From Trypanosoma brucei (Eukaryota): a stretch of DNA of 64,000 bases. The DNA lies in the NCBI GenBank assembly GCA_000002445.1, contig CH464491.1, positions 512,001 to 576,000 of the forward strand, given 5' to 3'. The notes under the pieces are model-generated. The model was not told where the DNA came from. It did no database searches and worked only from the letters and a program-made list of their open reading frames with translations. Of this stretch, positions 4,701-48,813 are shown in pieces. A program made the position numbers and the translations under genes. Positions within the stretch are counted from its first letter, which is position 1, and each line of letters begins with the position of its first letter.

Positions 4701-4994
4701 ATAAGTCAGAATACTTTATACAAAGGGAAAAATGAAACTAAAAACAGTAACATCAAGAAGAATACACGCTCTCTGCAACGCTACGACACCAACACCGCAT
4801 GGCGGTACATAAGACGCAACCCACAAATGAAAATATCCAATAAAAACGGTAGAAGGGAACTAAACAAAAAAGATAGGAAAAATCTAACTCCGTCCTGGAG
4901 GGACGCACGAGGACGTCCTGAAACGTGTGACAGCTTTCTCCCACACTCAGGTAAACCTCATAGCGTGTCTAATAGCGGGCAGCAGCGGATGCGC

Positions 4995-5225
4995 TCACGC
5001 CTTCTTAGCGGCGGCCTTCTTGCCGGCAACCTTCTTGGGGGCAACCTTTTTGGGAGCGGCCTTCTTGGCTAAAGGTTTCTTGGCAACAGCCTTTTTGGGA
5101 GCAGCCTTCTTAGCGACAGCCTTCTTTGGAGCAGCCTTCTTAGCGACAGCCTTCTTTGGAGCAGCCTTTTTGGGGGCTGCCTTCTTGGCCACAGCTTTCT
5201 TGGGAGCAGCAGATGCCTTCGCCAT
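4995..5225 (-). CDS. H1: histone H1 (copy A), 76 aa, Lys/Ala/Pro pentapeptide repeats
   Basis: [20 protein letters not shown]...KKAAAKKA. The track ORF 4995..5408 was trimmed to the internal ATG at 5225 (cat at 5223-5225). The upstream part of the track ORF translates the T-rich UTR. Kinetoplastid H1 is a short AK/P-rich protein lacking a globular domain. Confidence 0.85.
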   Translation of the reverse strand: MAKASAAPKKAVAKKAAPKKAAPKKAVAKKAAPKKAVAKKAAPKKAVAKKPLAKKAAPKKVAPKKVAGKKAAAKKA

Positions 5226-5651
5226 ACTTCCGAGTGTTGATAAGATTGCGACTTCTTCCACAGGGAGAAAGAGAAAAATGAAAGCAAAATAAAATGAATG
5301 TGAAAGAACATGAGAATACAATGAGTTTGGAGGAAATAAGCGGAAAGGAAAAAGACCTACAGCAATACTATTGGACCACAACCATACACAGGCAGTTAAA
5401 ATAGCCACACATCAGGATGATATGCTCTTTGCAACGCTACGACACCAACACCGCATGGCGGTACATAAGACGCAACCCACAAACGAAACATATCCAATAA
5501 AAACGGTAGAAGGGAACTAAACAAAAAAGATAGGAAAAATCTAACTCCGTCCTGGAGAGACGCACGAGGACGTCCTGAAACGTGTGACAGCTTTCTCCCA
5601 CACTCAGGTAAACCTCATAGCGTGTCTAATAGCGGGCAGCAGCGGATGCGC

Positions 5652-5894
5652 TCACGCCTTCTTAGCGGCGGCCTTCTTGCCGGCAACCTTCTTCGGGGCA
5701 ACTTTTTTGGGAGCGGCCTTCTTGGCGACAGCTTTCTTGGGAGCAGCCTTCTTAGCGACAACCTTCTTAGCTAAAGGTTTCTTGGCAACAGCCTTCTTTG
5801 GAGCAGCCTTTTTGGCCACAGTTTTCTTTGGAGCGGCCTTTTTGGCTGCAACCTTCTTTGGGGTGGCCTTCACAGTAGCGGTTGTGTTGTTCAT
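5652..5894 (-). CDS. H1: histone H1 (copy B), 80 aa, variant N-terminus [14 protein letters not shown]
   Basis: Same pentapeptide-repeat body and identical C-terminus ([13 protein letters not shown]) as copy A. ATG at 5894. The N-terminal 12 residues and the 5' flank differ from the other copies. Confidence 0.75.
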
Positions 5895-12031: not shown

Positions 12032-13744
12032 CTACGAAGCTTTCGCATCCCTAGTGAACATCGGTATCTCACCCCATACGCAAGCACCACGGAGCATAAT
12101 ATATATACCGAGGCCAAACACAATTGCACCAATGAAAAAACCTGCACCCAACACCATCGTTCCTGCCGTGATGTCCCCGCATGCTTCTAGAGACTCTACA
12201 ATCTTGTCGATTACGAAGTTGCACTCAAGTAGCGGCCTGGCATACGACCACGCGATGGTTACGTTCTGCACTCTCTCAATCTGACTTGTTGCGCGAACCG
12301 CAAGCTCCTGTAATTGATCGTTTTCACAACGCGCGGCACACTCCGTAAGGTTGCACGCCTTTCCGGCCTCTCCACATGGGTTTAAGGAACCTTTAACTTC
12401 CGCCGTCAACACAAGTGCGGACATCGCATCAAACGTCGTACACTGCGAGGCGTCTGTAAATCCTTCTTGACAGTTTAGCACAGGGACCGCGGGAAGATCC
12501 GGAAAATTCGGCCCCTCGGAAATTCCAGGCAGACCCGAGTGGTCACGCACAGGTGTTGGATGCGGTGGACCCCCCGCCCTATCGCTTGCAGGAGGAACAT
12601 TTCCGTGTTTGTGGCTTGTGTTCTCCAAGGCCTTTTCATTTGGATATTCGCCACCGGGTGGCAGCAACCTGTTTCTCTCACCAGGGTGAGGATCAGCACG
12701 ATCCACTACGCCACCGGGGCCCCGAAGCTTACGTCTGTCACAGAACGGTAGAACTGCCTTGCAGACACCCTGAGACAGCTGCAACTCAGCGGCCATAATG
12801 CCCTTGTTTAACTGTTGGAAATTAAAAAACTCTTTACAAACAGGGACGCCATACCACTGAATCAGCCCTGGATCCCGCCCATGGTGTCGCTCCACTTCGC
12901 CGCAGGTAAGGGTGGCGAAGTACGCCAGAATCGTCAACAGAAGTCCGAGCACGGCGAAGGCAAGACCAAAAATCCAATAGACGAACGAGATACATATTGG
13001 AAACCCCGGAATGCAGCACTTGAACATGGCAAAAGGGAGAATAACAAGTACCATAACGAAACCAAGGCTTCCGACAACGTAGGACGCGATGGAGACCTTG
13101 TCAAAGTGTACAAAGACTGTTGCACGGACTGCGGACACGCCTTCCATTACCTTCTTCTGCATGCTGGAAAACTCGGAGAAGTCAATCGTAAAGTCACCTG
13201 GTTCCCTCCGCTCACCCGAGCTCCAGTCATATGTGTAATCCATTACACTTTCTGCTGTTTGATTAAAGTACGACAAGGGTCCAGAGACTGCGTCGTCGAC
13301 GAACGTTGGAACAGCCTTCGTCACCGTCCGAGTCCCGTATACGATAAGAAAAAAAACCATAACGCTCCAAAGTAGGGCATACACGATGTACAACCACAAA
13401 CAGCAACGGGCCTGATTCCTGCTCTTCTTCGTTTCCGGTTTACAGCAGTTTGCACCACAACAGCCGCAACAGTTACAGCATATGGAGCAAATGAATACAA
13501 GAGGGAAGCTTACCAACAGTACTGCAAGAAGTACAGCACTTAGAAACGGCAAAACAAAGAGCTTCCACTGAGACCGCATGCGCTCTGCATTGAGTATACA
13601 CGCCTGAACGTCATTACTGGTACTCGGGCCATCCCACACATTCTCGCATTGAAACGAACCCTCTCTAGTTGCGGATGCTGGCGTGGCGGCAAACAGTAAC
13701 ACCAACCCCACTGCCAGAGCTGCTGACCTCAGGGCATTATACAT
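12032..13744 (-). CDS. multipass transmembrane protein with N-terminal signal peptide and CC-rich (CSICCNCCGCCGANCC) juxtamembrane cluster
   Basis: 570-aa ORF with ATG at 13744. Hydrophobic N-terminus MYNALRSAALAVGLVLLFAATPASA, and at least five further long hydrophobic segments. The Cys cluster is encoded at ~13442-13489. Family not recognised. Confidence 0.55.
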   Translation of the reverse strand: MYNALRSAALAVGLVLLFAATPASATREGSFQCENVWDGPSTSNDVQACILNAERMRSQWKLFVLPFLSAVLLAVLLVSFPLVFICSICCNCCGCCGANCCKPETKKSRNQARCCLWLYIVYALLWSVMVFFLIVYGTRTVTKAVPTFVDDAVSGPLSYFNQTAESVMDYTYDWSSGERREPGDFTIDFSEFSSMQKKVMEGVSAVRATVFVHFDKVSIASYVVGSLGFVMVLVILPFAMFKCCIPGFPICISFVYWIFGLAFAVLGLLLTILAYFATLTCGEVERHHGRDPGLIQWYGVPVCKEFFNFQQLNKGIMAAELQLSQGVCKAVLPFCDRRKLRGPGGVVDRADPHPGERNRLLPPGGEYPNEKALENTSHKHGNVPPASDRAGGPPHPTPVRDHSGLPGISEGPNFPDLPAVPVLNCQEGFTDASQCTTFDAMSALVLTAEVKGSLNPCGEAGKACNLTECAARCENDQLQELAVRATSQIERVQNVTIAWSYARPLLECNFVIDKIVESLEACGDITAGTMVLGAGFFIGAIVFGLGIYIMLRGACVWGEIPMFTRDAKAS

Positions 13745-15483
13745 GGTATAGAACGCTCAGTGCCAATATCGGTCTCCGCAGTTGAAAAAAGGGGGTGTGC
13801 TGGCAGCCAAACCCGATAGAGGAATGAGAAACTAACGATTAGGTATATCGGCAGGTTGATAAACAACAAAGTGGGTGCTTACCGTCAGTGTTCTTGGGCC
13901 AAGCTACGAATGCAAAGAGAGGTTACGGCAACAAAGGGGAGAACAAGAGGAACGCCGTTGAAAACAGTGGAAAGGCAGACAAACATACCAGTGTGTAAAC
14001 GAAGACCTGCAATAAAAGAATGATCAGCTGTGCTGCCCCAAGGAAAAGAGTAATATAACTCCGATTCGTGCCCCACAGTATTACAGAGTAATAGCTTGAG
14101 AGTAATTAGTTGCCCCGGTCGGGCCTCCGTCACTGTTTTGGTACAACAAACTGACCACAAAGAAGCATGTGAAGAACACCCAGCAAATCGGTTGCCACAC
14201 CCCGTGGGCATAGCATCAGGCGATGACAGAGGCGAAGCATCGATATTAGTATTACAAACTTGCGGAAACGGCAACTGACACGAGGGTAGTAGCGTTAACT
14301 GCAGACGAACCTGTGTTTCAGCGCGAGCAGAAAAAGATAAAATTGGGTGCTATTTTAGTCCGGAAATGTGCCGGCGGTTACAAAAACGAAGTTAACGGTA
14401 ACATAACAGCGGGGATGCGAGGAACTACACACGCCTAAATCTCCGCGACCACAATCTAAGCGGCAAAGCAGAATTTAAGGAAGCCACGCCACATTCCTTC
14501 GTTTGACAACATTACATGCAGTCGGGTATCATTGTGCCTGCAGCCAATGTTCAGAGTAAAGAAGACCCCATCCCCACAGTGCCACAGCGCACCACCGCTA
14601 AGTGGAGTAATCTAAAAGAACCAAAGGCATCTAGAACTTTTCGTCGAGCCCAAGTTCTGCTGACTCGATCTTTGAAGAAGCAAGGGAGTGTAGTACCTAA
14701 ACTGTCAGCTTGTAAAAATAGGGAAGGACGTGAAACAGGAAAATAGGGGGAAAACGGCAGCTTTATATGTATATTGTCTCCGTTCCAACATTACTGGTGG
14801 GAGGGAAGTTAAAGTGGCGTGTCCATGCGGAGTGAGAGGCAAGGACAGAGACGGGTAAACATAGGAGAACAATTAAATAGAGGACTAGGAGCTGATAAGC
14901 AATTCTCATGTAATATATATAACAAAAGTCCTTGAGTACAAATTGAAAATGAATGAAAATGGGGGAAATGACGGAAAATTGTGATTCGCCTTCAGGAAAA
15001 AGGGGGTCCCGTACATGTCAAAGATTTTTGTGGTCGGTGCTCTTGGCCCCGTTTCTCTTCCCCCACCATCACTCATTCCCCTCCACACCTTTCCCTTTCC
15101 TCATCTTGGTAGGTATACAAATGAAATATTCGCATCTGTTTACTTGGTTCCTTACCTTCCCCTCCGATTCCTCAACACCTAAGATCACATTTTACCTCCG
15201 ACATCCCTTTACAGTCAGAGCAGTGCAATTCATAGGGGCTGTGGAGGAAACGAAAATTCGAACAAACGTTGCTTAATAATACATCACAAACAGACACTGT
15301 AGGGGTAGTTTTTCTCCCTCTTGACCTCCACTTCTTCTTCCACGTGATCATTTTCGTGAGTACTTCCGGAGCCGTTATCGCATTACTTTCCTGCTATTAC
15401 CTTATACAAGCGGCCACACAAAAAAAACACTTTTTGACCCATCAAAACCCTTCCCTCTGAGTCACAACATCCACGGCACGACA

Positions 15484-15533
15484 CCCCCCCCCCATGCGCA
15501 ACGAAGATTGAACCACATCAGGGGGGGGGGGGG
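15484..15533. other. inverted homopolymer pair C10 - 27 nt - G13 (potential very stable G:C hairpin / G-rich structure) in intergenic region
   Basis: acaCCCCCCCCCCatgcgcaacgaagattgaaccacatcaGGGGGGGGGGGGGtag read directly. It lies ~330 nt downstream of the stop of the coiled-coil gene 15866..17065 on the transcribed (minus) strand. Confidence 0.6.
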
Positions 15534-15865
15534 TAGATGAACCGACAAAAAGCAGGAAGGAGGGAAAATATAGTGTTGGCTTGGAAGGCAACGTACATCA
15601 AGGGTATTTCCTGCAGTCGGCTACACGAAATTTTTATAACCTTTTTCTACTTCTATCTGCAGCAACCACTCACAAAAAACCCTGCGCGGCTATTAACCAT
15701 TAATAACGCAACGTCACCCCTCTTCATTTTTGTATTTGGTGTCAGCACCTCAAAAAAAAAAGTCACGATGGCATCTACACTTTCTCTCCCTTCCGGACAA
15801 CCAGCGCCCAACCGAGAAAAAAAAGTATACTAAGTGAGATGGATTGCAGATACCCTTTCCCATCC

Positions 15866-17065
15866 CTACTGGCTTAGCTTTGAGCGGCCGTTGCGGGCGC
15901 TCATCTGGCGGAGTGCCTCTACTTCCTTCTCAATCTGCTTAATCTCCTGCTCTGTGGCCTCCTGCTCCACCTCCAGTTCCTTCCTCTGTGCGTTGGTATA
16001 CTTCTTGTGCTCCTTTCCGATCCGCTTCATCTCCTTCCGCACGTTCGCTGTCGTCCGGATGAGACCAGCAGCCCGTCTGTCCAGGTCGGAGATGTCCGAA
16101 TCGAGTAACTCCAAATGCGCGGAGCCATCAAAGTGGAGGCGTGAGAGAGAAATGATCTCTTTGCGCAACTGCTCGACAAGGTCTGCATCGACACGCTCCT
16201 CTTCCAGGCTCTCATCGCCCCCAACTGCATCACCTATCATCTCAATACGTCGTTCCAGTCTGGCGATCTGCGCTGCTCGGTGGCAAACAGACAAATCATT
16301 GACACGAACAGCCTCACGTTCCTTGTCAAGCTTGTAGAGTGCCACCGTACGGTCCGTCTCGGCGCTCTTGATGAGGGCCAACTCATCAACAGGTTTCTCC
16401 TTCTCCAGCAAGGCCTCCTTCCGACGCAGGAGGCGCCGCATCGCCGCCACCTCATCACGGATACTCTTCAATTCTGCCTGCTTCTCAGAAAGCTGGTTAA
16501 GTGCATTAGCGCGATCACTCTCTATGTTATCGGTTGTCGACAATTCGCTTACCATACTCGAGAGATAGTTGTTCTGCTTCTTGAGGGTCTCCTGAATAAC
16601 TTCGCGGTCCTGTAGTGCGTTCACGATATCGAGCCTCAGTTTGTTCTTCAGGGCAACCGCATCCGTCATCTCCCTTATGGTTGCCATAGTCTCGCCGCCA
16701 GTTAGCCCAATGATCCTTTTGAACTCGTTGTTCTCCTCTTCCGCTTGGGTCGTACGCACAGTGGCATCTTGAAGGGCGGCCTCGAGGTGACTCCGTTCGC
16801 GTAGGAGGCGCTCGCGCTCCTTCACCAACAAGTGAAGTTCCCCCGCTTTGTTATTCACTTCACCGACAGCCTCGATAGGGATGAAAATCGTGCGTCCCTT
16901 AAAATTCTTCGACAAAATCTTTCCCTGCTCGGATGAAAGAGTTAAAGACGAAAGCTCCTCGTTCTGATAGCGCCTGGCCCTCTCGAGGATTGCAACTTCA
17001 GAGCGCAACCTCCGGCATTCCTCTTCCACATTGACAAACGCTCTTGCTAACTCTGCTGTTTCCAT
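15866..17065 (-). CDS. coiled-coil protein (hypothetical)
   Basis: 399-aa ORF with ATG at 17065. Heptad-like E/R/L/K-rich sequence throughout and no enzymatic motifs. Confidence 0.55.
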   Translation of the reverse strand: METAELARAFVNVEEECRRLRSEVAILERARRYQNEELSSLTLSSEQGKILSKNFKGRTIFIPIEAVGEVNNKAGELHLLVKERERLLRERSHLEAALQDATVRTTQAEEENNEFKRIIGLTGGETMATIREMTDAVALKNKLRLDIVNALQDREVIQETLKKQNNYLSSMVSELSTTDNIESDRANALNQLSEKQAELKSIRDEVAAMRRLLRRKEALLEKEKPVDELALIKSAETDRTVALYKLDKEREAVRVNDLSVCHRAAQIARLERRIEMIGDAVGGDESLEEERVDADLVEQLRKEIISLSRLHFDGSAHLELLDSDISDLDRRAAGLIRTTANVRKEMKRIGKEHKKYTNAQRKELEVEQEATEQEIKQIEKEVEALRQMSARNGRSKLSQ

Positions 17066-19176: not shown

Positions 19177-19247
19177 TCAGCTCTTCCCCGACAGCGATAC
19201 ACGGCTGCGCGAACCTACACAAAGCCACACCACAAATTTGATGATCG

Positions 19248-19260
19248 GGGGGGGGGGGGA
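19248..19260. other. G13 homopolymer (C13 on the transcribed minus strand) ~70 nt upstream of ATG of gene 17689..19176
   Basis: gatcGGGGGGGGGGGGGaagtg read directly. On the sense strand it is an all-C pyrimidine tract in the position where a trans-splicing polypyrimidine tract is expected. Confidence 0.5.
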
Positions 19261-20833: not shown

Positions 20834-21258
20834 ACTTCCGAGTGTTGATAAGATTGCGACTTCTTCCACAGGGAGAAAGAGAAAAATGAAAGCAAAATAA
20901 AATGAATGTGAAAGAACATGAGAATACAATGAGTTTGGAGGAAATAAGCGGAAAGGGAAAAGACCTACAGTAATACTATTGGACCACAACCATACACAGG
21001 CAGTTAGTATAGCCACACATCAGGATGATATGCTCTTTGCAACGCTACGACACCAACACCGCATGGCGGTACATAAGACGCAACCCACAAACGAAACATA
21101 TCCAATAAAAAAATGAAAAAGAAATAAAAAAGTAAGATAGGAAAAATCTAACTCCGTCCTGGAGAGACGCACGAGGACGTCCTGAAACGTGTGACAGCTT
21201 TCTCCCACACTCAGGTAAACCTCATAGCGTGTCTAATAGCGGGCAGCAGCGGATGCGC

Positions 21259-21474
21259 TCACGCCTTCTTAGCGGCGGCCTTCTTGCCGGCAACCTTCTT
21301 CGGGGCAACCTTTTTGGGAGCGGCCTTCTTGGCGACAGCTTTCTTGGGAGCAGCCTTCTTAGCGACAGCCTTCTTTGGAGCACCCTTCTTAGCGACAGCC
21401 TTCTTTGGAGCAGCCTTTTTGGGGGCTGCCTTCTTGGCCACAGCTTTCTTGGGAGCAGCAGATGCCTTCGCCAT
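21259..21474 (-). CDS. H1: histone H1 (copy D), 71 aa (one pentapeptide repeat fewer)
   Basis: MAKASAAPKK...[23 protein letters not shown]. It lacks the KKPLA repeat unit, so this unit has a 639-bp period against 655 bp for copy C. ATG at 21474. Confidence 0.85.
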   Translation of the reverse strand: MAKASAAPKKAVAKKAAPKKAAPKKAVAKKGAPKKAVAKKAAPKKAVAKKAAPKKVAPKKVAGKKAAAKKA

Positions 21475-21899
21475 ACTTCCGAGTGTTGATAAGATTGCGA
21501 CTTCTTCCACAGGGAGAAAGAGAAAAATGAAAGCAAAATAAAATGAATGTGAAAGAACATGAGAATACAATGAGTTTAGAGTAAATAAGCGGAAAGGAAA
21601 AAGACCTACAGTAATACTATTGGACCAAAACCATACACAGGCAGTTAAAATAGCCACACATCAGGATGATATGCTCTTTGCAACGCTACGACACCAACAC
21701 CGCATGGCGGTACATAAGACGCAACCCACAAATGAAAATATCCAATAAAAACGGTAGAAGGGAACTAAATAAGTAAGATAGGAAAAATCTAACTCCGTCC
21801 TGGAGGGACGCACGAGGACGTCCTGAAACGTGTGACAGCTTTCTCCCACACTCAGGTAAACCTCATAGCGTGTCTAATAGCGGGCAGCAGCGGATGCGC

Positions 21900-23948: not shown

Positions 23949-25538
23949 TCATTGAGTCCGTTTGCGTGGCACAGCCCGAAGGATGTCATCAACGCGAAGT
24001 ATCATTTCAGCAGCCTCAGCAGCGTAGCCCAAGACAGAACTTTTAACCTTGAACGACTCAGTGATCCCAAGGGCCTTGACGTCAGCAACATCGCCCTTTA
24101 CAACATCGATCCCAAATGTATTACGACCTTGATAGTGCTCCGCCTGCAAGCGAGTGATCAGATCATTACTGTCAAGCCCCGCATTATCGGCGATGATGGA
24201 TGGGATCATCCGGAGTGCGTTAGCAAAGGCAATCATCGCGAGCTGCTTCTTTCCTGGTGTTGTTTTGGCCCTTTCCTCAACAGCGCGTGCCATGACAAAT
24301 TCAGAGCACCCAGCGCCCAGCACCGTCCTCGTTTCACCGATGGTTTGTGAAATAACACAGAGTGCATCGTGGATGGAACGCTCAGCTTCATCTAAAATGT
24401 GCTGCGACATTCCGCGAACCACAATCGTACATGCTTCGCCCTTGGGGAGACCAGAGAACCGTATAACGGTGCTCTCACCGATCATAATTTCGTCAATCCT
24501 CTTTGCAAAGCCATACTTGACATTCTGAGACTCGTCAAACTGTGAAAGCACGTCGGCACCCAGTGCCTTGGCAAGTCGTTCAATCCCCTCAAAATCAGCG
24601 TGTTCAATTGCCATAATTCCGTGCTGGGCAAAGATTTCTTCGGGATAATTGTAGATAAGTTGGCGGTTAATGAAGCAGTTGATATTGTGCTTTATTATCT
24701 TCATACACTTGTTTTTCATCTTTTCCTTCTCTGAAGCTTCAACTTCCGCCAACTGCGACACACTTTCCACTCGAACTTTGGCTCCAAAAATCTTGATTTT
24801 GTCGGTGTCCATGGGAGTGTTCGCTACCAGAATCTTAGCGTCCTCTAGGAAACGCGGTTGGCCGACACCAATTTTTTTATCGAGTAAGAAACCAGGTTCA
24901 AGGTAGCTGTCACGGAGGGTTCCCCCCAATTTTTTCATTATATTAATCATTTCAAGGTTACCACTTCCCTTTAAGCGAAGAACAGCGTCTACACAAAGCT
25001 TGGCGAAGTGCTCCTTTTCCACAGTAATAATTTTAGAACTCAGAGTCGTTTTGGCAATCCTGATCAAGTCGTCATAGAACAACTTCTCGTCACTACCGTG
25101 GTCTTCAGCGGAGGCAACCAGTGCCTCACGTGCAACTTGCGTAGCTAGACGGTATCCTTCGATGATCGTTTGAGGGTGAATCGATTGGTCTAGCAGTTTC
25201 TCAGCGTTTCGAAGAAGTTCACCGGCGAGAACGGTCACACTCGTGGTTCCATCACCAACTTCGTCATCCTGGGTCTTACTCATGTCAATGAGAATTTTTC
25301 CTGCTGGGTTATCCATGAAGAGGGACTTGAGTATAGTAGCACCATCATTGGTCACACGTACTCCCTGAGACCGATCCATGCCTTGAAGAATCTTGTCCAT
25401 TCCCTTTGGTCCAAGGGTCGTTTTCACAATATCGGCAACCGATACGGCACCCATAATATTCATGAGGCGGGCACGCTCACCCTTCTCCTCTGAAGCTCCG
25501 TCACGGAGCACCTGCTGAGCTTGGTTAGCGAAAAGCAT
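23949..25538 (-). CDS. CCT2: T-complex protein 1 (CCT) subunit beta chaperonin
   Basis: Near-collinear identity blocks with CCT-beta: [88 protein letters not shown]. The track ORF starts at TTG 25559; the first in-frame ATG is at 25538. Confidence 0.85.
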
Positions 25539-26075: not shown

Positions 26076-27044
26076 TTATTCTACATGAACAATAATTCCG
26101 GTATTCCGTACCCCAGTTGCGGAGGTAATGAAGCTCCTTATAGATCCCTTAACGAGGCCGCGCACGGAGCTCTGATCAGCCGAATCGTGCTTCAGAAGTT
26201 TAACTGCACAAAGTGAAGAGTCCCTGGGTGAAGTTGAATGTGTCCACGCACAAAGACAGAGAACTCTTTTAACACCAACAACACTGCATATCTCGGAAAT
26301 TAGGGTCTGGAAAAACGACAGCTCTCCATAAGGCTGATTTGACAACAGCAAAACTTTACCTGTTTCCTCTAAGAGGGGAAACGCCGATGCAGCTATGAAA
26401 AACGAACACAGAATGCTACAAATTGGGTCAGAAATCCTCGCCCCCGTCAGTGTAATTATGATACTTGATGTCATCACGCTTATGCTCCCTAGAAGATCAG
26501 CCAGTATGTGCAAGTAAACCCCTCTAATATTGTGATCAACCGAGCCCGAGCAACCACCATGAGCATGTGAGTGACCGTGCATACCATGAAAAAAAATGAT
26601 TCCTAGAATATTTACAATTAACCCGATAAGTGAAACTTGTATCAAATATCCAGCTTCAATTTCCGGCGGTTTAATTATCCGTTCAATTGATTCCAGGGTA
26701 ACATACCATGCAATAAATAGTAGAAGAACAGCGTTTACAAAGCCTCCCAAAACTTCATATCTCGCATACCCAAACGGATACCTCCTTTCATCAGATGGAA
26801 AGGATGCAACAACGGCAGCGCACAAGCCGATGGCAATAGAAGCGGAGTCGAGCATCATGTGAAAGGCATCAGAGATAAGCCCCAGCGAATTAACCGCAAT
26901 TCCATATACTAATTCAAGCACCATCACCCCAGTCGTCAGCAACAGAAACATCGCTAAATTCCTCTCCCGTCGGCTGGAAAATAATTGACTGATAGCATTT
27001 GCAACAGAAATATCGTTCCCCTTGTAGGGAAACCCGGGAAGCAT
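26076..27044 (-). CDS. cation diffusion facilitator (CDF/ZnT-like) metal transporter
   Basis: 322 aa with six hydrophobic helices, a His-rich loop HGMHGHSHAHGGCSGSVDH and an HILADLLGSISV motif typical of CDF transmembrane helix 5. ATG at 27044. It is the promoter-proximal gene of the minus-strand PTU. Confidence 0.75.
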   Translation of the reverse strand: MLPGFPYKGNDISVANAISQLFSSRRERNLAMFLLLTTGVMVLELVYGIAVNSLGLISDAFHMMLDSASIAIGLCAAVVASFPSDERRYPFGYARYEVLGGFVNAVLLLFIAWYVTLESIERIIKPPEIEAGYLIQVSLIGLIVNILGIIFFHGMHGHSHAHGGCSGSVDHNIRGVYLHILADLLGSISVMTSSIIITLTGARISDPICSILCSFFIAASAFPLLEETGKVLLLSNQPYGELSFFQTLISEICSVVGVKRVLCLCAWTHSTSPRDSSLCAVKLLKHDSADQSSVRGLVKGSIRSFITSATGVRNTGIIVHVE

Positions 27045-30000: not shown

Positions 30001-33000
30001 TCGTGCGTGGTGCCGGATAGGGTGGAAAAAAAAAAAGAACCCCCCCCCCGGGAGTCGAGAGGTCGCCCCTGACGACAGACGAGAAACATTTCTTATGCCC
30101 GGCTGGCACCACCGAAGGACCCAGGGGGGAAAGAAGGATGGTCGCCCCGGCGGTGCCAGCACAGGGTAGCCACTCGGGACAACAAAGCAAACCTCGGTAA
30201 ACAGAACAATAGGGTATCGAAACTGGTCGTGGCAGAAGAGCGTTTTAAACGCTGCGACAACTGCTCGCAACCCACTAGGCGGCGTCAACCCCCAGCGCTC
30301 GTTACTCTCGGGCTTCCGCGGGCCGAGGGGCGACAAGGACGAGCTGCGGCCGGAAGGTAACAAACAATGCCAACGAAACAGCGCGACGCATGGAAGATGA
30401 AAGTACTGGAGGTCAAGGGTTGCTTACTCGGGGCGTTTTATGGGCCCAACGGAAAGGCTACAATATGGGCGCTGCTTGGTGAATCGGAGATTTGTGGGGG
30501 CAGCACGTACTCGAGTAGCTGAAATATACGAACTGCAGCGAGAAGTAATATGTATTTAACCCGTTCAATTGAACCCTGTAATGCAGAAAAACACTGCGCT
30601 ACTGAAAGCAGAGCTCCATCACAACGTTACCGGTGGAAACAAACTGGATATCGACATTTCACCATTTTCAAAGTTATCGGAACGGATGGTCGCCAGTAGG
30701 TTCTGTGGTACCGTGGACCAACCGTCATGGGCGTAACAAGCCGAGTTAACACGAACGCCTCGAACAGTAGGCAGCATAGCGCAACTTTTTCGGACCTGAG
30801 TTTCTCTAGAAATATCACCAGGCGCCGCTGCTGTATTCACGCACCGTCCCCGAGCACTTGTATCAGTGAATCAAAGCCGCGCCATCCACGCATCGGAAAG
30901 ACTCCCCGTGGACTCATAGTCACTCGATGGATTAGCAATTCTCCAAGCAGAGTGGTGTGAGCCAGAGTGTGCACACTTCCGGGGGCTACCGCTAATACTG
31001 GGACCGCCGCAGGGACCAACGTTGGGCCTCATTCTGTTCAACCCTTGGAACAGTGGTAAATGTCTCGTCCCAGGGTTCAGCACCATGAGGGGACTCTGTT
31101 CCACTACATGACTTACCCTAGTGATGCAGAATACTTCAACGTAGTACCAGAGACCTCTGACACGTTTTTTCGCGTGAGACCAATAATCTTAAGGGGTGCA
31201 GACCTGTGGAACACTGTTTTGGCCGATCCGCTCGGTCGACCATACGGCATGGGGTCCGCCAACCCCGTTGCGGGATATCGCTTCTCTACGTTGTTCCCCT
31301 GACAGGTGCTAGTATTCCGGCAAAAGCATAACTTCAAGTAAGACAGCGGTCTTATTACACAGCATCCTGCAGTGTTGTTTCCTAGTTGCCCCGGTTTTTC
31401 GTATTTCTCACGAAGGTAAAAAGAAAATCTCTAACTTTTTTTTTGTTAATCAAAACGGCAGACGAAGTGAACATGGCACTTAACAGCGTGCAAGGGACCT
31501 GGCGCCACTTCGTTGTCGGTGATCTAAGTCTGGAGGTGATGGAGAAACAATAAGTACGGTGAAGCTGCAGCGTGGGCCACAAAAGGGTGGAAACAGTGAT
31601 GTAACCGTTGGCAGGGCGGTTGTAGGTCCTGCGCTGAATGAGATTTTGTTTGCTTCAAGCGTGGTGAAACATTCAAACCCAAAACACATAGGAGTCACAA
31701 ATGTCAGGTACCAGAAGTCTTCAAGAACTAATAGCGGTTTTAAACCAGGTAAGTAGGGTTATTGCTATTAGGCGTCAAGTAATGTAGGAGATGCCCACTA
31801 CCAGGGCACAAAAGAGAAAGAGCATCCGGAACACATTCCCAGCGCGACGACAACAAACGCAAATAAGCACTAGGGCAAAGAATTGCACCACTGGGTCTGA
31901 AAAGAAGCAGAGGACATGATGATAGGATGCGCACCGGCGACCCGAGCGCCAGAGTGCTTGTAAAAGGAATGTCACGCTTACCGAAAAGGTAAATTGCACA
32001 AACCTGTTTCCTCGGTACAAAACTGAAGAATCGGAAAGGTAGTGCGCTAACGCGGGGAATGGAAAGCACTTATACATTCGCCACTAAATGAACGGGGAAG
32101 GAGTAAACCCCCACATTCTTCACGGCACCCCAATATATTGGTAAATGCGTCCAGTTTCTATGATCCTGTTGGTATCGTCTTCCCAGGGTGACTCGACGAA
32201 GGGTTTGCAGAACTCAGGTTTCAAAAGTGCGGTGCCTACGCGCCGGAAGAACCCCAACCCTGGCAGAAACGACGGATGTCTGGGGGTTGGCGAGAAAATG
32301 CGCCTTATTCTGTGAACGCTTAAGAGCGGAACAAAGAAGTGTAGGCTTCCACTACAACTGGCGGTTATAGTATGGAGCAAAAAAAAGTTATAGTGAGTCG
32401 AATCCGCAGCACGATGTAAAGTTTTCGATCGAGGGGAGGGGTTAAATTAAAACGCAATCCCACAAGTCCACATAGCTGGAAAGGGGTCAGATTAAATCCC
32501 ATAAGCTACGATGCAACTAGTTTGGTCACTAGTTTTGCAGCCACATCGGCATTACGGCACTGAAGCAGTGGGAACAGCTACTGAATTTAGAGGCAACCCA
32601 CTATGCACTATCGCGAACGACGGCCAGCAACAGAAAAAAAAATGAAGCAAATCTGGGGGGAGGGAGAAGAGAAAGTTTAGCGCCAGATCTGAAAGGATGG
32701 CCTCATAACACGTGCTGTTATGATTTGAATTGGCCTCTTGTGTCTGAGATATCTCGTTGTGTTATCCAAAAGTTTGTTTGAGGTAAGGGAACCTGGGCAA
32801 TCCACAACGGACAGTTCAGCAAAACAGAGAGGGGAAATCAATGGAAGATAATTCAAGGAGGAGAAAGAAGAATCAAAGGTGTAACTGAAACTGGATCCCA
32901 AGAATGAACTTACGAGAAGTTGCAACGCGTCGAAGGTTCCCGGGCTGGTGGACAGCTCCTGTAACACACGCGGTGCGCGGGTTATATAAAACCAACAGTA

Positions 33001-41975: not shown

Positions 41976-43529
41976 ATGAGCAGCGCGGTAGATTCCCTGC
42001 TTGTACGCCTCAAGATTCCGGACCTAATCCCAAAGTTTAGGGAGATGAACGTTGATCGCATCATCAGCCTGCGCAAACTAAGTGAGGAGGAGCTTCGGAC
42101 TGCCGTTCCCGATGATGACCAGCGAAACCGAATAATCGAAGCCATTAAGAACCGTGGGAGTAGTGAGAAGAGGACACAGGCCCCGGCTGCAAGCATAAAT
42201 CCACCTCGTTCTACGGATGATGGAGGTCGCGGTGGCATGTCATACCCTCGTGGAGCACCCCGCGGTGGTGGTCCAGTGCGAGGACGAGGTCGCGGCGGGA
42301 CTGGCAGCGCAGGCGAGGGTGGATTTCACGGTAGTGGCAGCAATAACGCTAACATGTTTCCTTCTCGCCAGCGAGTGTGCAACCACTTTCTTAATGGTGA
42401 CTGCAGGTACGGTGACTCCTGCCGTTATAGCCACAACAAGGCACTGTGCCAGGAGGCGGCGGAAAGTGTGCCTCGACGCAACCACGATGCGACATCGTTG
42501 TCTGAGGATTTCAGTGAAACGTGTATTATTCCTACACACCGCATAAAGTATCTACTTGCGAACAGGGCTGATCGCCTTCGGAGTATACACAGCAAGAATC
42601 GCACACACAACAAGTCATTTCAACACATTGACCCCACCATCGAAAAATTCGAGCTCGTAATTTACGGGGCCGACCAGCAATCTGTTCAGGAGAGCAAGAA
42701 AATGATTCTTGCTTGTATTGGTGTGACACGTGAGGAGGAGCAGAAGAATCGTGTGCAGTACACAATGAACGAGTTGAGCAGTAATCAACGCGCGGCTAAA
42801 TTTTTGGCAGCATGCAATATGAAGAACGAGGGGACTGTTCGTGAACTGTCGGAGGCATCACTGAGGAATATCATTTCGTTCTTCCGCTTTGAGAAGCAGC
42901 AGGATATACGTCACTTTTGGGTGAACACCAACAGCGAACACAGTAAGCTGGATATCATCGCCAACATAGTTGCCCAGCTACAGGGAGTACAAGCCATCAT
43001 GTTCTGTGACCAGAAGCGTGTTGTGGATATGAGCAAAGTGGCATCTAAAATCACTCGCTATTTCAACGGTGTCTCCCCCCTGTTTCTCCACCGTGCCATC
43101 CCGAAGGAGGAGCGCATGAAGATGCTCCAAACTTTCAAAGACGGTAAACCTAATGAAAATGGTATTCGAGAACGTCTGCTTGTTACTAATGAAGACTATG
43201 CCAAACTGGCTCGGAAAACAATTGTTCCGTATGTTAATCTTGTCATTAACTACTCAGTCCCACGCTCTGAAGAATACTACCTACTTCAATCTCTTGTGGC
43301 GGGGCGCAGTGACACGGTAGGAGTTTCCATTGTGTGTGTTTTCCCGCACGAGCAGTCCCTATTTCAAGAATTGCAGCGGAACATCCCGTTTGAAGAGCTT
43401 GAGGAGGAAGGGAATTTCAAGGATGCCGCGGTGAAGCTGGTGTACGACACTGTGGACGAACCATTAACAGGTGAGGACGCCGACCCCCCAAGCAACTGGC
43501 ATGAGCAACTGAAGCCCAAGACCCTGTGA
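41976..43529 (+). CDS. SAM-like / RGG-box / CCCH zinc-finger protein fused to a degenerate DEAD-box (eIF4A-like) helicase core lacking ATPase motifs; possibly the T. brucei ZC3H41-type protein
   Basis: CCCH finger CNHFLNGDCRYGDSCRYSH (nt ~42366-42437). RGG region GGRGGMSYPRGAPRGGGPVRGRGRGG. The C-terminal ~290 aa align collinearly with the eIF4A RecA1-tail/RecA2: IRHFWVNTNSEHSKLDIIANIVAQLQGVQAIMFCDQKR (compare [39 protein letters not shown]), LHRAIPKEERMKMLQTFKDG (compare [20 protein letters not shown]), LLVTNEDYAKLARKTIVPYVNLVINYSVPRSEEYYLLQ (compare [38 protein letters not shown]). No GKT Walker A, DEAD or SAT motif is present. Confidence 0.7.
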   Translation: MSSAVDSLLVRLKIPDLIPKFREMNVDRIISLRKLSEEELRTAVPDDDQRNRIIEAIKNRGSSEKRTQAPAASINPPRSTDDGGRGGMSYPRGAPRGGGPVRGRGRGGTGSAGEGGFHGSGSNNANMFPSRQRVCNHFLNGDCRYGDSCRYSHNKALCQEAAESVPRRNHDATSLSEDFSETCIIPTHRIKYLLANRADRLRSIHSKNRTHNKSFQHIDPTIEKFELVIYGADQQSVQESKKMILACIGVTREEEQKNRVQYTMNELSSNQRAAKFLAACNMKNEGTVRELSEASLRNIISFFRFEKQQDIRHFWVNTNSEHSKLDIIANIVAQLQGVQAIMFCDQKRVVDMSKVASKITRYFNGVSPLFLHRAIPKEERMKMLQTFKDGKPNENGIRERLLVTNEDYAKLARKTIVPYVNLVINYSVPRSEEYYLLQSLVAGRSDTVGVSIVCVFPHEQSLFQELQRNIPFEELEEEGNFKDAAVKLVYDTVDEPLTGEDADPPSNWHEQLKPKTL

Positions 43530-48172: not shown

Positions 48173-48813
48173 GAGAGCCGTTTGGGAAACGTTGCAACTA
48201 CCGCAATATCGTCGGACCAGAAACTGAATGCATAACCGCGCTCACAAGCATAATCTCTTGTAACAAGCGCGTTGGGTGCGATGATGCGTACGGACGGGAG
48301 TGTGGCAGCGATGTTGTTGAGATGGAGTAAGGCAACGTGGCGCTTTCCACTCGTTGGGTGCTTTCCCATGCGGTTGAAGCTTGATCTGACTCTCAGGGGG
48401 TTTGGCTGAAGAGCATGCAGATTCGGGTGAAAGCAAATGTTCGAGTGGGAGTGTGTAATAAAATAATGCTACAGAACCTAAGCTTCAGTAGATCTTTGAT
48501 AAGTATTTTCCTCCCCTTCCCGTAGCTGATCCGCAGTGCCTTGAGGGCGCAAGCAAGAGGTGTGTGACGTGTGAATAGTCTAGTTTCTCCCAAGGAAAGG
48601 TTGGGTGGGGGGGGGAGTTAATGATTTTCCACGATTTAATCTTCCAGAAGCTGCTGATGATACGGAGGCTCGTGAGTTGTGAGCGATCTTAGTGTCATAA
48701 CATGGATTGCGTGTATATCTGTGCGTTGAAGAGATCTGTATCATTTTATTGGACATTAGGTCTTTTTTACTCTTGTCTACACGGTCTTATTTTTATTTTG
48801 AAGTGTTTCACAC

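What the first reader, a model, noticed from the sequence alone, without database searches (positions are those of the whole stretch)
15484..15533. C10 ... G13 inverted homopolymer pair able to form a 10-bp all-G:C hairpin with a 27-nt loop
Two long complementary homopolymers face each other across 27 nt inside the ~2 kb intergenic region between the coiled-coil gene and the membrane-protein gene. In the minus-strand transcript this is C13...G10.

Such a structure is exceptionally stable and is also G-quadruplex/i-motif prone. It could act as an RNA processing or stability element, or a polymerase pause site, or it could mark an internal start/stop of transcription. Long G-runs have been associated with transcription start regions in T. 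brucei.
Basis: partly seen in the sequence, partly recalled or inferred. Interest (0 to 1): 0.5.

Follow-up and report, generated by a model that had tools for sequence, protein, structure and literature searches.

The report
Homopolymer hairpin inside a trypanosome 3'UTR
Two real, facing runs of C and G can fold into a very stable hairpin, but they lie in the middle of an ordinary Trypanosoma brucei 3' untranslated region, vary in length between strains, and show no sign of marking a transcription start or RNA processing site.

Summary
In detail: C10 (15484-15493), a 27-nt spacer and G13 (15521-15533). The window is T. brucei TREU927 chromosome 11, v4 positions 512,001-576,000.

Published procyclic-form RNA-end maps (Kolev 2010) put the main poly(A) site of the upstream coiled-coil gene Tb11.39.0004 at window 14875, giving a 991-nt 3'UTR. 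The element, C13...G10 in the sense RNA, therefore lies 333-382 nt into a mature 3'UTR. It is not in spacer DNA and not at a processing site or internal transcription start.

The helix is predicted with pair probability about 1.0 in the whole UTR. It is present in nine other Trypanozoon assemblies, with drifting lengths (C 11-18, G 10-11) around an invariant spacer. It is absent from the syntenic regions of T. vivax, T. theileri and T. melophagium.

Canonical G-quadruplex and i-motif patterns are not met, and Rfam gives nothing. Given the run density, the adjacency has about a 1% chance per window, so a few are expected per genome.

Most likely this is two slippage-prone mononucleotide repeats that happen to pair: a physically real hairpin that is probably neutral. 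Low interest.

The parts
15521..15533 (-). 5' arm of the hairpin in the sense RNA: C13 (G13 on the + strand). It also forms the 3' end of a 22-nt pyrimidine tract (15541-15520).
   Evidence: Its length is 11-18 in other Trypanozoon assemblies.
15494..15520 (-). 27-nt spacer (sense: UGAUGUGGUUCAAUCUUCGUUGCGCAU). It is identical in all eight assemblies that span it. It is predicted to add 5 + 4 pairs, but is no more stable than shuffled sequence.
15484..15493 (-). 3' arm of the hairpin in the sense RNA: G10 (C10 on the + strand).
   Evidence: Its length is 10-11 in other assemblies.
14875..15865 (-). The 991-nt 3'UTR of Tb11.39.0004 that contains the hairpin. The predominant poly(A) site is at window 14875 (chr11 v4 526,875).
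   Evidence: Kolev 2010 Table S13: 'Tb11.39.0004 11 526869 996.84 526875 991 28.78'. 15866 - 991 = 14875. The 512,000 offset is cross-checked with Tb11.42.0003 (stop at 23949) and Tb11.42.0002 (stop at 26076) against the ORFs.
15866..17065 (-). Coding sequence of Tb11.39.0004, a 399-aa conserved coiled-coil protein (XP_828271 / EAN79159 / Q4FKA8) with no Pfam domain.
15547..15568 (-). U/C-rich pyrimidine tract (TTTTCCCTCCTTCCTGCTTTTT) just upstream of the C-run. The first AG downstream of both tracts is at 15458-15457. No processing is mapped here.
   Evidence: absence of mapped sites.
14709..14859 (-). The processing region actually used: pyrimidine tracts at 14859-14829 and 14754-14732, and an AG at 14710-14709. 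It lies directly downstream of the poly(A) site. The splice site of novel transcript Tb11.NT.23 is at 14708.
   Evidence: Kolev Table S7: 'Tb11.NT.23 526708 526004 704 -'.

Best explanation
The element is a pair of slippage-prone mononucleotide repeats. They lie 333-382 nt into the 991-nt 3'UTR of the T. brucei chromosome 11 gene Tb11.39.0004, which encodes a conserved 399-aa coiled-coil protein.

The region is transcribed as part of the minus-strand polycistronic unit and is kept in the mature mRNA. There the C-run and G-run pair into an 11-bp helix (one A:U plus ten C:G). The helix is a physical fact of the mRNA, but it is most likely a neutral or nearly neutral by-product of two microsatellites lying next to each other. 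It is not a dedicated signal.

Shown here:
- the sequence and its presence in independent assemblies;
- the length drift of both runs;
- the position inside the mapped 3'UTR;
- the absence of mapped processing sites or transcription starts at the element;
- the predicted pairing.

Inferred: that the helix forms in vivo, and that it has no selected function.
For: 1. Identity of the locus. The window proteins are exact matches to T. brucei TREU927 chromosome 11 proteins. Three Kolev 2010 poly(A) entries fit the window ORF stops with a single offset of 512,000.
2. Position in a mature 3'UTR. The predominant poly(A) site gives a 991-nt UTR with dispersion 28.8. The gene is absent from the list of alternative UTR processing. 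The only novel transcript between 453 kb and 531 kb on chromosome 11 is Tb11.NT.23, at window 14708-14004.
3. No internal transcription start. The minus-strand unit is listed as one 'Divergent' unit, and the window has no tRNA genes.
4. Microsatellite behaviour. The C-run is 13, 13, 18, 11, 15, 16, 16 and 15 nt, and the G-run 10, 11, 11, 10, 11, 11, 11 and 11 nt, in the eight assemblies that span both runs (TREU927 first). Two further contigs end inside the C-run, after 15 C's. Over the roughly 1 kb UTR alignment the only other differences are four substitutions and two T-run indels, apart from two mismatches at the end of one contig.
5. No conservation outside Trypanozoon. The syntenic regions of T. 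vivax, T. theileri and T. melophagium have no G/C run of 7 nt or more after the orthologous gene.
6. Chance adjacency is about 1.1% per window, so several pairs are expected per genome.
7. The spacer shows no excess structure, and Rfam gives no hit.
8. The mRNA is reasonably abundant, at 9.5 copies per cell in procyclic forms. The helix is therefore not a strong destabiliser.
9. A sense-strand G9 also lies in another 3'UTR of this window: 48607-48615, about 60 nt upstream of the Tb11.46.0008 poly(A) site at window 48674.
Against: - A helix of at least 10 C:G pairs is kept in every Trypanozoon assembly examined, despite the length drift. However, these genomes are more than 99% identical, so this has little weight.
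- The local probability of the adjacency is low (about 0.01), and no genome-wide count could be made.
- The RNA-end maps come from a single life-cycle stage (procyclic). Stage-specific processing, pausing, or an effect on stability or translation was not examined.
- T. congolense, the nearest informative outgroup, could not be retrieved.
Confidence: 0.7

Rival explanations
1. The hairpin is a functional cis-element of the Tb11.39.0004 mRNA. It might be a structured site that binds a protein or blocks exonucleases. Alternatively, the G-run might sequester the C-rich pyrimidine tract so that it is not used as a cryptic trans-splicing/polyadenylation signal in the middle of the 3'UTR.
For: - The helix has pair probability about 1.0 in the full UTR.
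- At least 10 C:G pairs are kept in all eight spanning assemblies.
- The C13 and the adjacent U/C tract together look like a strong pyrimidine tract with an AG 61 nt downstream. Yet no processing is mapped there.
- By contrast, the other C13 of the window (19259-19247) lies exactly where a used tract is expected. It is 67 nt downstream of the Tb11.NT.24 poly(A) site and 71 nt upstream of the next ATG.
Against: - There is no conservation outside Trypanozoon.
- Both runs drift in length.
- Homopolymers cannot show covariation.
- The neighbouring U/C tract (15568-15547) would not be masked by the G-run.
- Many trypanosome 3'UTRs contain unused pyrimidine tracts (general knowledge, not tested here).
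- No functional data exist.
Confidence: 0.15
2. The element acts at the DNA level. The G/C tracts would exclude nucleosomes or form a cruciform, G-quadruplex or R-loop that slows RNA polymerase II or replication forks.
For: - The single-stranded DNA fold is -16.7 kcal/mol (z = -2.3).
- Oligo-d(G.C) runs are reported as under-represented in T. brucei nucleosomes (PMC5359979).
- Two short-read contigs end inside the C-run. This shows the tract is hard for polymerases or assemblers in vitro.
Against: - The canonical G-quadruplex and i-motif patterns are not met in TREU927.
- A 10-bp stem with a 27-nt spacer is a poor cruciform former (inference).
- The mRNA downstream of the element is made normally: the poly(A) site is 609 nt beyond it, at 9.5 copies per cell.
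- No chromatin or replication data were available at this coordinate.
Confidence: 0.08
3. The element marks an internal Pol II transcription start region. A sense-strand G-run faces an antisense G-run, like a miniature divergent promoter.
For: - On the + strand the order is C-run then G-run, so each strand carries a G-run pointing outwards.
- A sense G10 followed by T11 also lies at the edge of the true divergent strand-switch region, at 30049-30026.
- The association of G-runs with T. brucei start regions is recalled from Siegel et al. 2009. That paper could not be read here.
Against: - The published 5'-triphosphate-based map lists the whole minus-strand unit as one 'Divergent' unit with no internal start.
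- The element is inside a mature 3'UTR with a tight poly(A) site downstream.
- No novel transcript starts nearby.
- There are no tRNA or snRNA genes in the window.
Confidence: 0.03
4. The homopolymers are a sequencing or assembly artefact.
For: The run lengths differ between assemblies, and two contigs break inside the C-run.
Against: Both runs and the identical spacer are present in eight independent assemblies: the reference TREU927 window, T. b. gambiense DAL972, two T. equiperdum genome assemblies, and four of six Logan assemblies of separate runs. The other two Logan contigs end inside the C-run.
Confidence: 0.01

Closest known systems
Mononucleotide microsatellites in non-coding DNA
   Same: Uninterrupted homopolymers of 10 nt or more in a UTR. 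Their length differs between closely related strains while the flanks stay identical.
   Different: Two complementary runs lie 27 nt apart, so the transcript can fold back on itself. A single run cannot do that.
Sense-strand G-runs at T. brucei Pol II transcription start regions (Siegel et al. 2009, recalled from memory; not readable here)
   Same: A G-run of about 10 nt on the sense strand. The true strand-switch region of this window carries one at 30049-30040.
   Different: This element lies 14.5 kb inside the polycistronic unit, within a mature 3'UTR. No start is mapped there.
Polypyrimidine tract signals for coupled trans-splicing and polyadenylation in trypanosomes
   Same: The C13 ends a 22-nt pyrimidine tract and an AG follows. 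The window's other C13 (19259-19247) lies exactly where a used tract is expected.
   Different: No splice-acceptor or poly(A) site is mapped around this tract in procyclic forms. The tract is also predicted to be base-paired.
Regulatory elements in procyclin (EP/GPEET) mRNA 3'UTRs of T. brucei, including a stem-loop and an internal pyrimidine tract (Hehl 1994, Hotz 1997, Furger 1997; titles seen in the reference list of PMC2926603; details from memory)
   Same: Structure or pyrimidine tracts inside a trypanosome 3'UTR that could affect mRNA abundance or translation.
   Different: Those elements were defined by mutagenesis. This one has no functional test, no sequence relation was examined, and it is made of homopolymers.

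Membership tests
Mononucleotide microsatellite | Uninterrupted homopolymer of about 9-10 nt or more | tested here: met
   C10 and G13.
Mononucleotide microsatellite | Length polymorphism between close relatives with conserved flanks | tested here: met
   C-run 11-18 nt and G-run 10-11 nt. The spacer is identical in the eight assemblies that span it. Differences of plus or minus 1 may be sequencing error.
Mononucleotide microsatellite | Non-coding location | tested here: met
   Inside the 991-nt 3'UTR of Tb11.39.0004.
Pol II transcription start region with G-run (T. brucei) | Lies at the head of a polycistronic unit, where primary (5'-triphosphate) transcripts start | tested here: not met
   Kolev 2010 Table S14 lists Tb11.42.0002 to Tb11.55.0027 as one 'Divergent' minus-strand unit with no 'Internal' entry.
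Pol II transcription start region with G-run (T. brucei) | G-run on the sense strand | tested here: met
   Sense G10 at 15493-15484.
Pol II transcription start region with G-run (T. brucei) | Enrichment of H2A.Z, H2B.V, H4K10ac or BDF3 | not testable with these tools
   No ChIP-seq tracks are available.
Trans-splicing/polyadenylation signal | Pyrimidine tract followed by an AG | tested here: met
   Tracts at 15568-15547 and 15541-15520; first AG at 15458-15457.
Trans-splicing/polyadenylation signal | Mapped splice-acceptor site downstream and poly(A) site upstream of the tract | tested here: not met
   The predominant poly(A) site is at 14875 with dispersion 28.8. There is no alternative-UTR entry and no novel transcript at the element. 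The data are from procyclic forms only.
Canonical G-quadruplex / i-motif motif | Four tracts of three or more G (or C) separated by loops of 1-7 nt | tested here: not met
   A regular-expression scan of 15400-15620 on both strands found no canonical match. Only a two-tetrad pattern within G13 and long-loop patterns fit.
Curated structured RNA family (Rfam 15) | Match to a covariance model | tested here: not met
   No hits at gathering score over the window, and none at E-value up to 1 over 13745-15865.
Conserved cis-regulatory 3'UTR stem-loop | Thermodynamically stable helix in the context of the mRNA | tested here: met
   Pair probability 0.95-1.0 for 8 of the 10 G residues in the 991-nt UTR. 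Local MFE -36.7 to -40.4 kcal/mol across strain variants.
Conserved cis-regulatory 3'UTR stem-loop | Conservation or covariation across species | tested here: not met
   Absent from the syntenic regions of T. vivax, T. theileri and T. melophagium. T. congolense was not retrievable. Homopolymer arms cannot show covariation.
Conserved cis-regulatory 3'UTR stem-loop | Measured effect on mRNA fate | not testable with these tools
   Only the steady-state abundance is known: 9.5 copies per cell.

The most novel reading that the evidence does not exclude
The G-run is kept because it base-pairs with, and so hides, a strong C/U-rich pyrimidine tract in the middle of the 3'UTR. Hiding the tract would suppress premature polyadenylation and trans-splicing. 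Because both runs are hypermutable, their lengths could tune this masking between strains or life-cycle stages. That would be a length-variable RNA switch for 3'-end choice in an organism that regulates genes almost entirely after transcription.
Probability: 0.07. Interest if true: 0.5.

Novelty: new member of a known kind. Interest (0 to 1): 0.12.

Why it matters
As it stands it matters little. It shows that a striking C...G homopolymer pair in a trypanosome chromosome is an ordinary 3'UTR feature, not a hidden promoter or processing signal.

It has some practical value:
- The tract breaks short-read assemblies, and its length is unreliable between assemblies.
- It could serve as a hypervariable marker within Trypanozoon.

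Only if the helix proved to control use of the neighbouring pyrimidine tract would it bear on how trypanosomes choose mRNA ends.

Tried and rejected
- T. congolense orthologue: the protein was found (P0002), but no contig is on record. The closest outgroup is therefore missing.
- Siegel et al. 2009 (G-runs at start sites) is not held. Text searches for a citable statement on G-runs at T. brucei start sites gave only general G-quadruplex papers.
- First attempt to place the window: I guessed that the 517-aa CCCH protein was Mex67 (Tb11.22.0004). That gene family maps to about 636-680 kb, far from a strand-switch region, so the guess was rejected. The correct placement came from Tb11.46.0011 and three poly(A) entries.
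- Other RNA-end data sets: the Nilsson 2010 supplements do not mention these genes, and the Siegel 2010 supplements are not held. Kolev's full site tables S4 and S5 are truncated in the library, so only the summary tables could be used.
- Rfam, at gathering score and at E-value up to 1, gave no match. The tRNA scan found none.
- The spacer as an independently selected stem-loop was rejected (z = +0.39).
- A genome-wide enrichment test was not possible, because no searchable collection here holds the T. brucei genome.

Full report
**The observation.** The sequence reads ...gacaCCCCCCCCCCatgcgcaacgaagattgaaccacatcaGGGGGGGGGGGGGtagatg... C10 lies at 15484-15493, a 27-nt spacer at 15494-15520 and G13 at 15521-15533, exactly as reported. 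Only four G or C runs of 10 nt or more occur in the 64 kb window. They are these two, a second G13 at 19247-19259 and a C10 at 30040-30049.

**Where this is.** Long ORFs lie on the minus strand up to about 30.4 kb and on the plus strand from 35 kb. The cumulative GC skew turns at the same place. This is a divergent strand-switch region of a trypanosomatid chromosome.

Six window proteins are exact matches to proteins of the T. brucei group, several of them T. b. brucei TREU927 chromosome 11 entries. They include EAN79158-79160 and XP_828270-828272.

Three poly(A) entries in Table S13 of Kolev et al. 2010 (PMC2936537) fit window ORF stops with one offset of 512,000:

| Gene | Predominant poly(A) site | 3'UTR | Implied stop (window) |
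|---|---|---|---|
| Tb11.39.0004 | 526,875 | 991 nt | 15866 |
| Tb11.42.0003 | 535,589 | 360 nt | 23949 |
| Tb11.42.0002 | 537,680 | 396 nt | 26076 |

The window is therefore Tb927_11_01_v4 positions 512,001-576,000, and the finding lies at 527,484-527,533.

**Anatomy of the neighbourhood, minus strand.**
- The 399-aa coiled-coil gene (17065-15866) is Tb11.39.0004. It has no Pfam domain and has orthologues across Trypanosoma.
- Its predominant poly(A) site is at window 14875. The averaged UTR is 997 nt and the dispersion 28.8 (column headers are).
- The element is C13...G10 in the sense RNA. It occupies nucleotides 333-382 of this 991-nt UTR, 609 nt upstream of the poly(A) site.
- Immediately after the poly(A) site come pyrimidine tracts at 14859-14829 and 14754-14732, then an AG at 14710-14709.
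- Table S7 lists a novel transcript, Tb11.NT.23, running from window 14708 to 14004. The real processing region is therefore about 650-800 nt downstream of the element.
- Tb11.39.0004 is not in the complete list of genes with alternative UTR processing (file 19 has no occurrence).
- No other novel transcript lies between 453 kb and 531 kb on chromosome 11.
- Table S14 lists the whole minus-strand unit, Tb11.42.0002 to Tb11.55.0027, as one 'Divergent' unit with no 'Internal' start.
- The window has no tRNA gene and no Rfam match.
- The mRNA is present at about 9.5 copies per cell in procyclic forms.

**Structure.** The sense RNA of 15470-15550 folds at -36.7 kcal/mol (z = -2.6). It forms A:U plus ten C:G pairs, and nine further pairs within the spacer. 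In the complete 3'UTR, eight of the ten G residues pair with the C-run at probability 0.95-1.0. Replacing the G-run with A's reduces the local energy to -7.3 kcal/mol. The spacer alone is no more stable than shuffled sequence (z = +0.39).

The antisense RNA and the single-stranded DNA fold less strongly, at -30.4 and -16.7 kcal/mol. Neither strand meets the canonical four-tract G-quadruplex or i-motif pattern. G13 fits only a two-tetrad pattern.

**Reproducibility and variation.** Contigs carrying the same gene were retrieved from:
- T. equiperdum OVI;
- T. b. gambiense DAL972;
- a second T. equiperdum assembly (GCA_003543875.1, locus tags DPX39);
- six Logan assemblies of separate sequencing runs.

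All carry the element. The sense C-run and G-run lengths are as follows:

| Assembly | C-run | G-run |
|---|---|---|
| TREU927 | 13 | 10 |
| T. equiperdum OVI | 13 | 11 |
| T. b. gambiense DAL972 | 18 | 11 |
| Second T. equiperdum assembly | 11 | 10 |
| Four Logan contigs | 15-16 | 11 |

Two further Logan contigs end inside the C-run. The spacer is identical in every contig that spans it. Apart from two mismatches at the end of one contig, the rest of the roughly 1 kb UTR alignment shows only four substitutions and two T-run indels. The two runs are therefore the most variable positions in the UTR, as expected for mononucleotide microsatellites. Differences of one nucleotide could be sequencing error. 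The range 11-18 is probably real. The element is not an artefact.

**Conservation.** Synteny is kept in T. vivax, T. theileri and T. melophagium. The sequence after the orthologous gene has no G or C run of 7 nt or more and nothing alignable. T. congolense, the informative outgroup, is not in the contig collection. The element is therefore known only from Trypanozoon. Those genomes are more than 99% identical here, so retention of at least ten pairs says little about selection.

**Chance.** If the four runs of 10 nt or more are placed at random in the non-coding 48% of the window, a complementary pair falls within 30 nt in 1.1% of trials, and within 60 nt in 1.8%. This is unusual for one window. 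At this run density it implies a handful of such pairs in a genome of some 26-35 Mb (my extrapolation). A genome-wide count could not be made with the available collections.

**Interpretation.** The most likely reading (about 0.7) is two slippage-prone homopolymers that happen to lie together in a long 3'UTR. They are transcribed and retained in the mature mRNA, where they almost certainly pair. Nothing suggests that the helix is a selected signal.

The start-site and processing-site ideas are contradicted by the published 5'-triphosphate, spliced-leader and poly(A) maps, although those cover procyclic forms only.

One rival deserves a test (about 0.15). The C13 and the adjacent U/C tract (15568-15520) look like a good pyrimidine tract with an AG 61 nt downstream, yet they are not used. 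The window's other C13 (19259-19247) lies exactly where a used tract is expected. It is 67 nt after the poly(A) site of Tb11.NT.24 and 71 nt before the ATG of Tb11.39.0005. Pairing with the G-run could hide the tract in the UTR. Against this, the neighbouring U/C tract would stay exposed, and unused pyrimidine tracts are common in trypanosome UTRs (general knowledge).

DNA-level effects are possible but untested (about 0.08). These include nucleosome exclusion by oligo-d(G.C), noted in PMC5359979, polymerase slowing and R-loops.

**Verdict.** The feature is a new but ordinary example of known kinds: mononucleotide repeats and a 3'UTR hairpin. Interest is low.

Noticed in passing
window 19247-19259: A second 13-nt run (G13 on the + strand, C13 in the sense strand). 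It lies 67 nt downstream of the poly(A) site of novel transcript Tb11.NT.24 (window 19326) and 71 nt upstream of the ATG of Tb11.39.0005 (19176). That is the expected position of the pyrimidine tract for trans-splicing of that gene. It is 12 nt long in T. equiperdum OVI.
   Followed up: partly
window 30026-30049: At the edge of the divergent strand-switch region, the minus (sense) strand reads G10-TTC-T11. It lies upstream of the first mapped minus-strand transcripts: Tb11.NT.25 (window 28012-27186) and the cation transporter Tb11.42.0002. This fits the recalled association of G-runs with start regions.
   Followed up: partly
window 14004-14708 (-): Kolev 2010 lists a 704-nt novel transcript, Tb11.NT.23 (2.85 RNA per cell), between the Tb11.39.0004 3'UTR and the 570-aa membrane-protein gene. 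Its 5' end is exactly the first AG after the pyrimidine tract at 14754-14732. The only sizeable ORF here (13885-14274) runs past the transcript's 3' end, so the transcript may be non-coding.
   Followed up: partly
window ~4768-5810 and ~20834-21600: Repeats of about 460-530 bp, 85-95% identical, correspond to histone H1 gene copies (Tb11.55.0001, Tb11.39.0008, Tb11.42.0005-0007 in Kolev's abundance table).
   Followed up: partly
L009 and L013 (contig ends); window 15521-15533: Two of six short-read (Logan) contigs end inside the C-run, 348 nt after the stop codon. A third contig (L010) ends in the T-run about 100 nt further on. Homopolymers break these assemblies.
   Followed up: yes
window 48607-48615: A sense-strand G9 lies in the 3'UTR of Tb11.46.0008, about 60 nt upstream of its mapped poly(A) site (window 48674). 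Sense G-runs in 3'UTRs are therefore not unique to the finding.
   Followed up: partly
window 12032-13744 (-): The 570-aa multi-pass membrane protein has a weak match to Prominin (PF05478, E = 4e-5, 22 bits against a cut-off of 34). The match is below threshold.
   Followed up: no
window 41976-43529 (+): The 517-aa protein combines a CCCH zinc finger (residues 132-154) with a Helicase_C domain (residues 324-435).
   Followed up: no
L005 1439-1451: T. melophagium has a C13 run in a different intergenic region of the syntenic block, between the cation-efflux and TCP1 genes. Long C-runs therefore arise independently in other trypanosomes.
   Followed up: no
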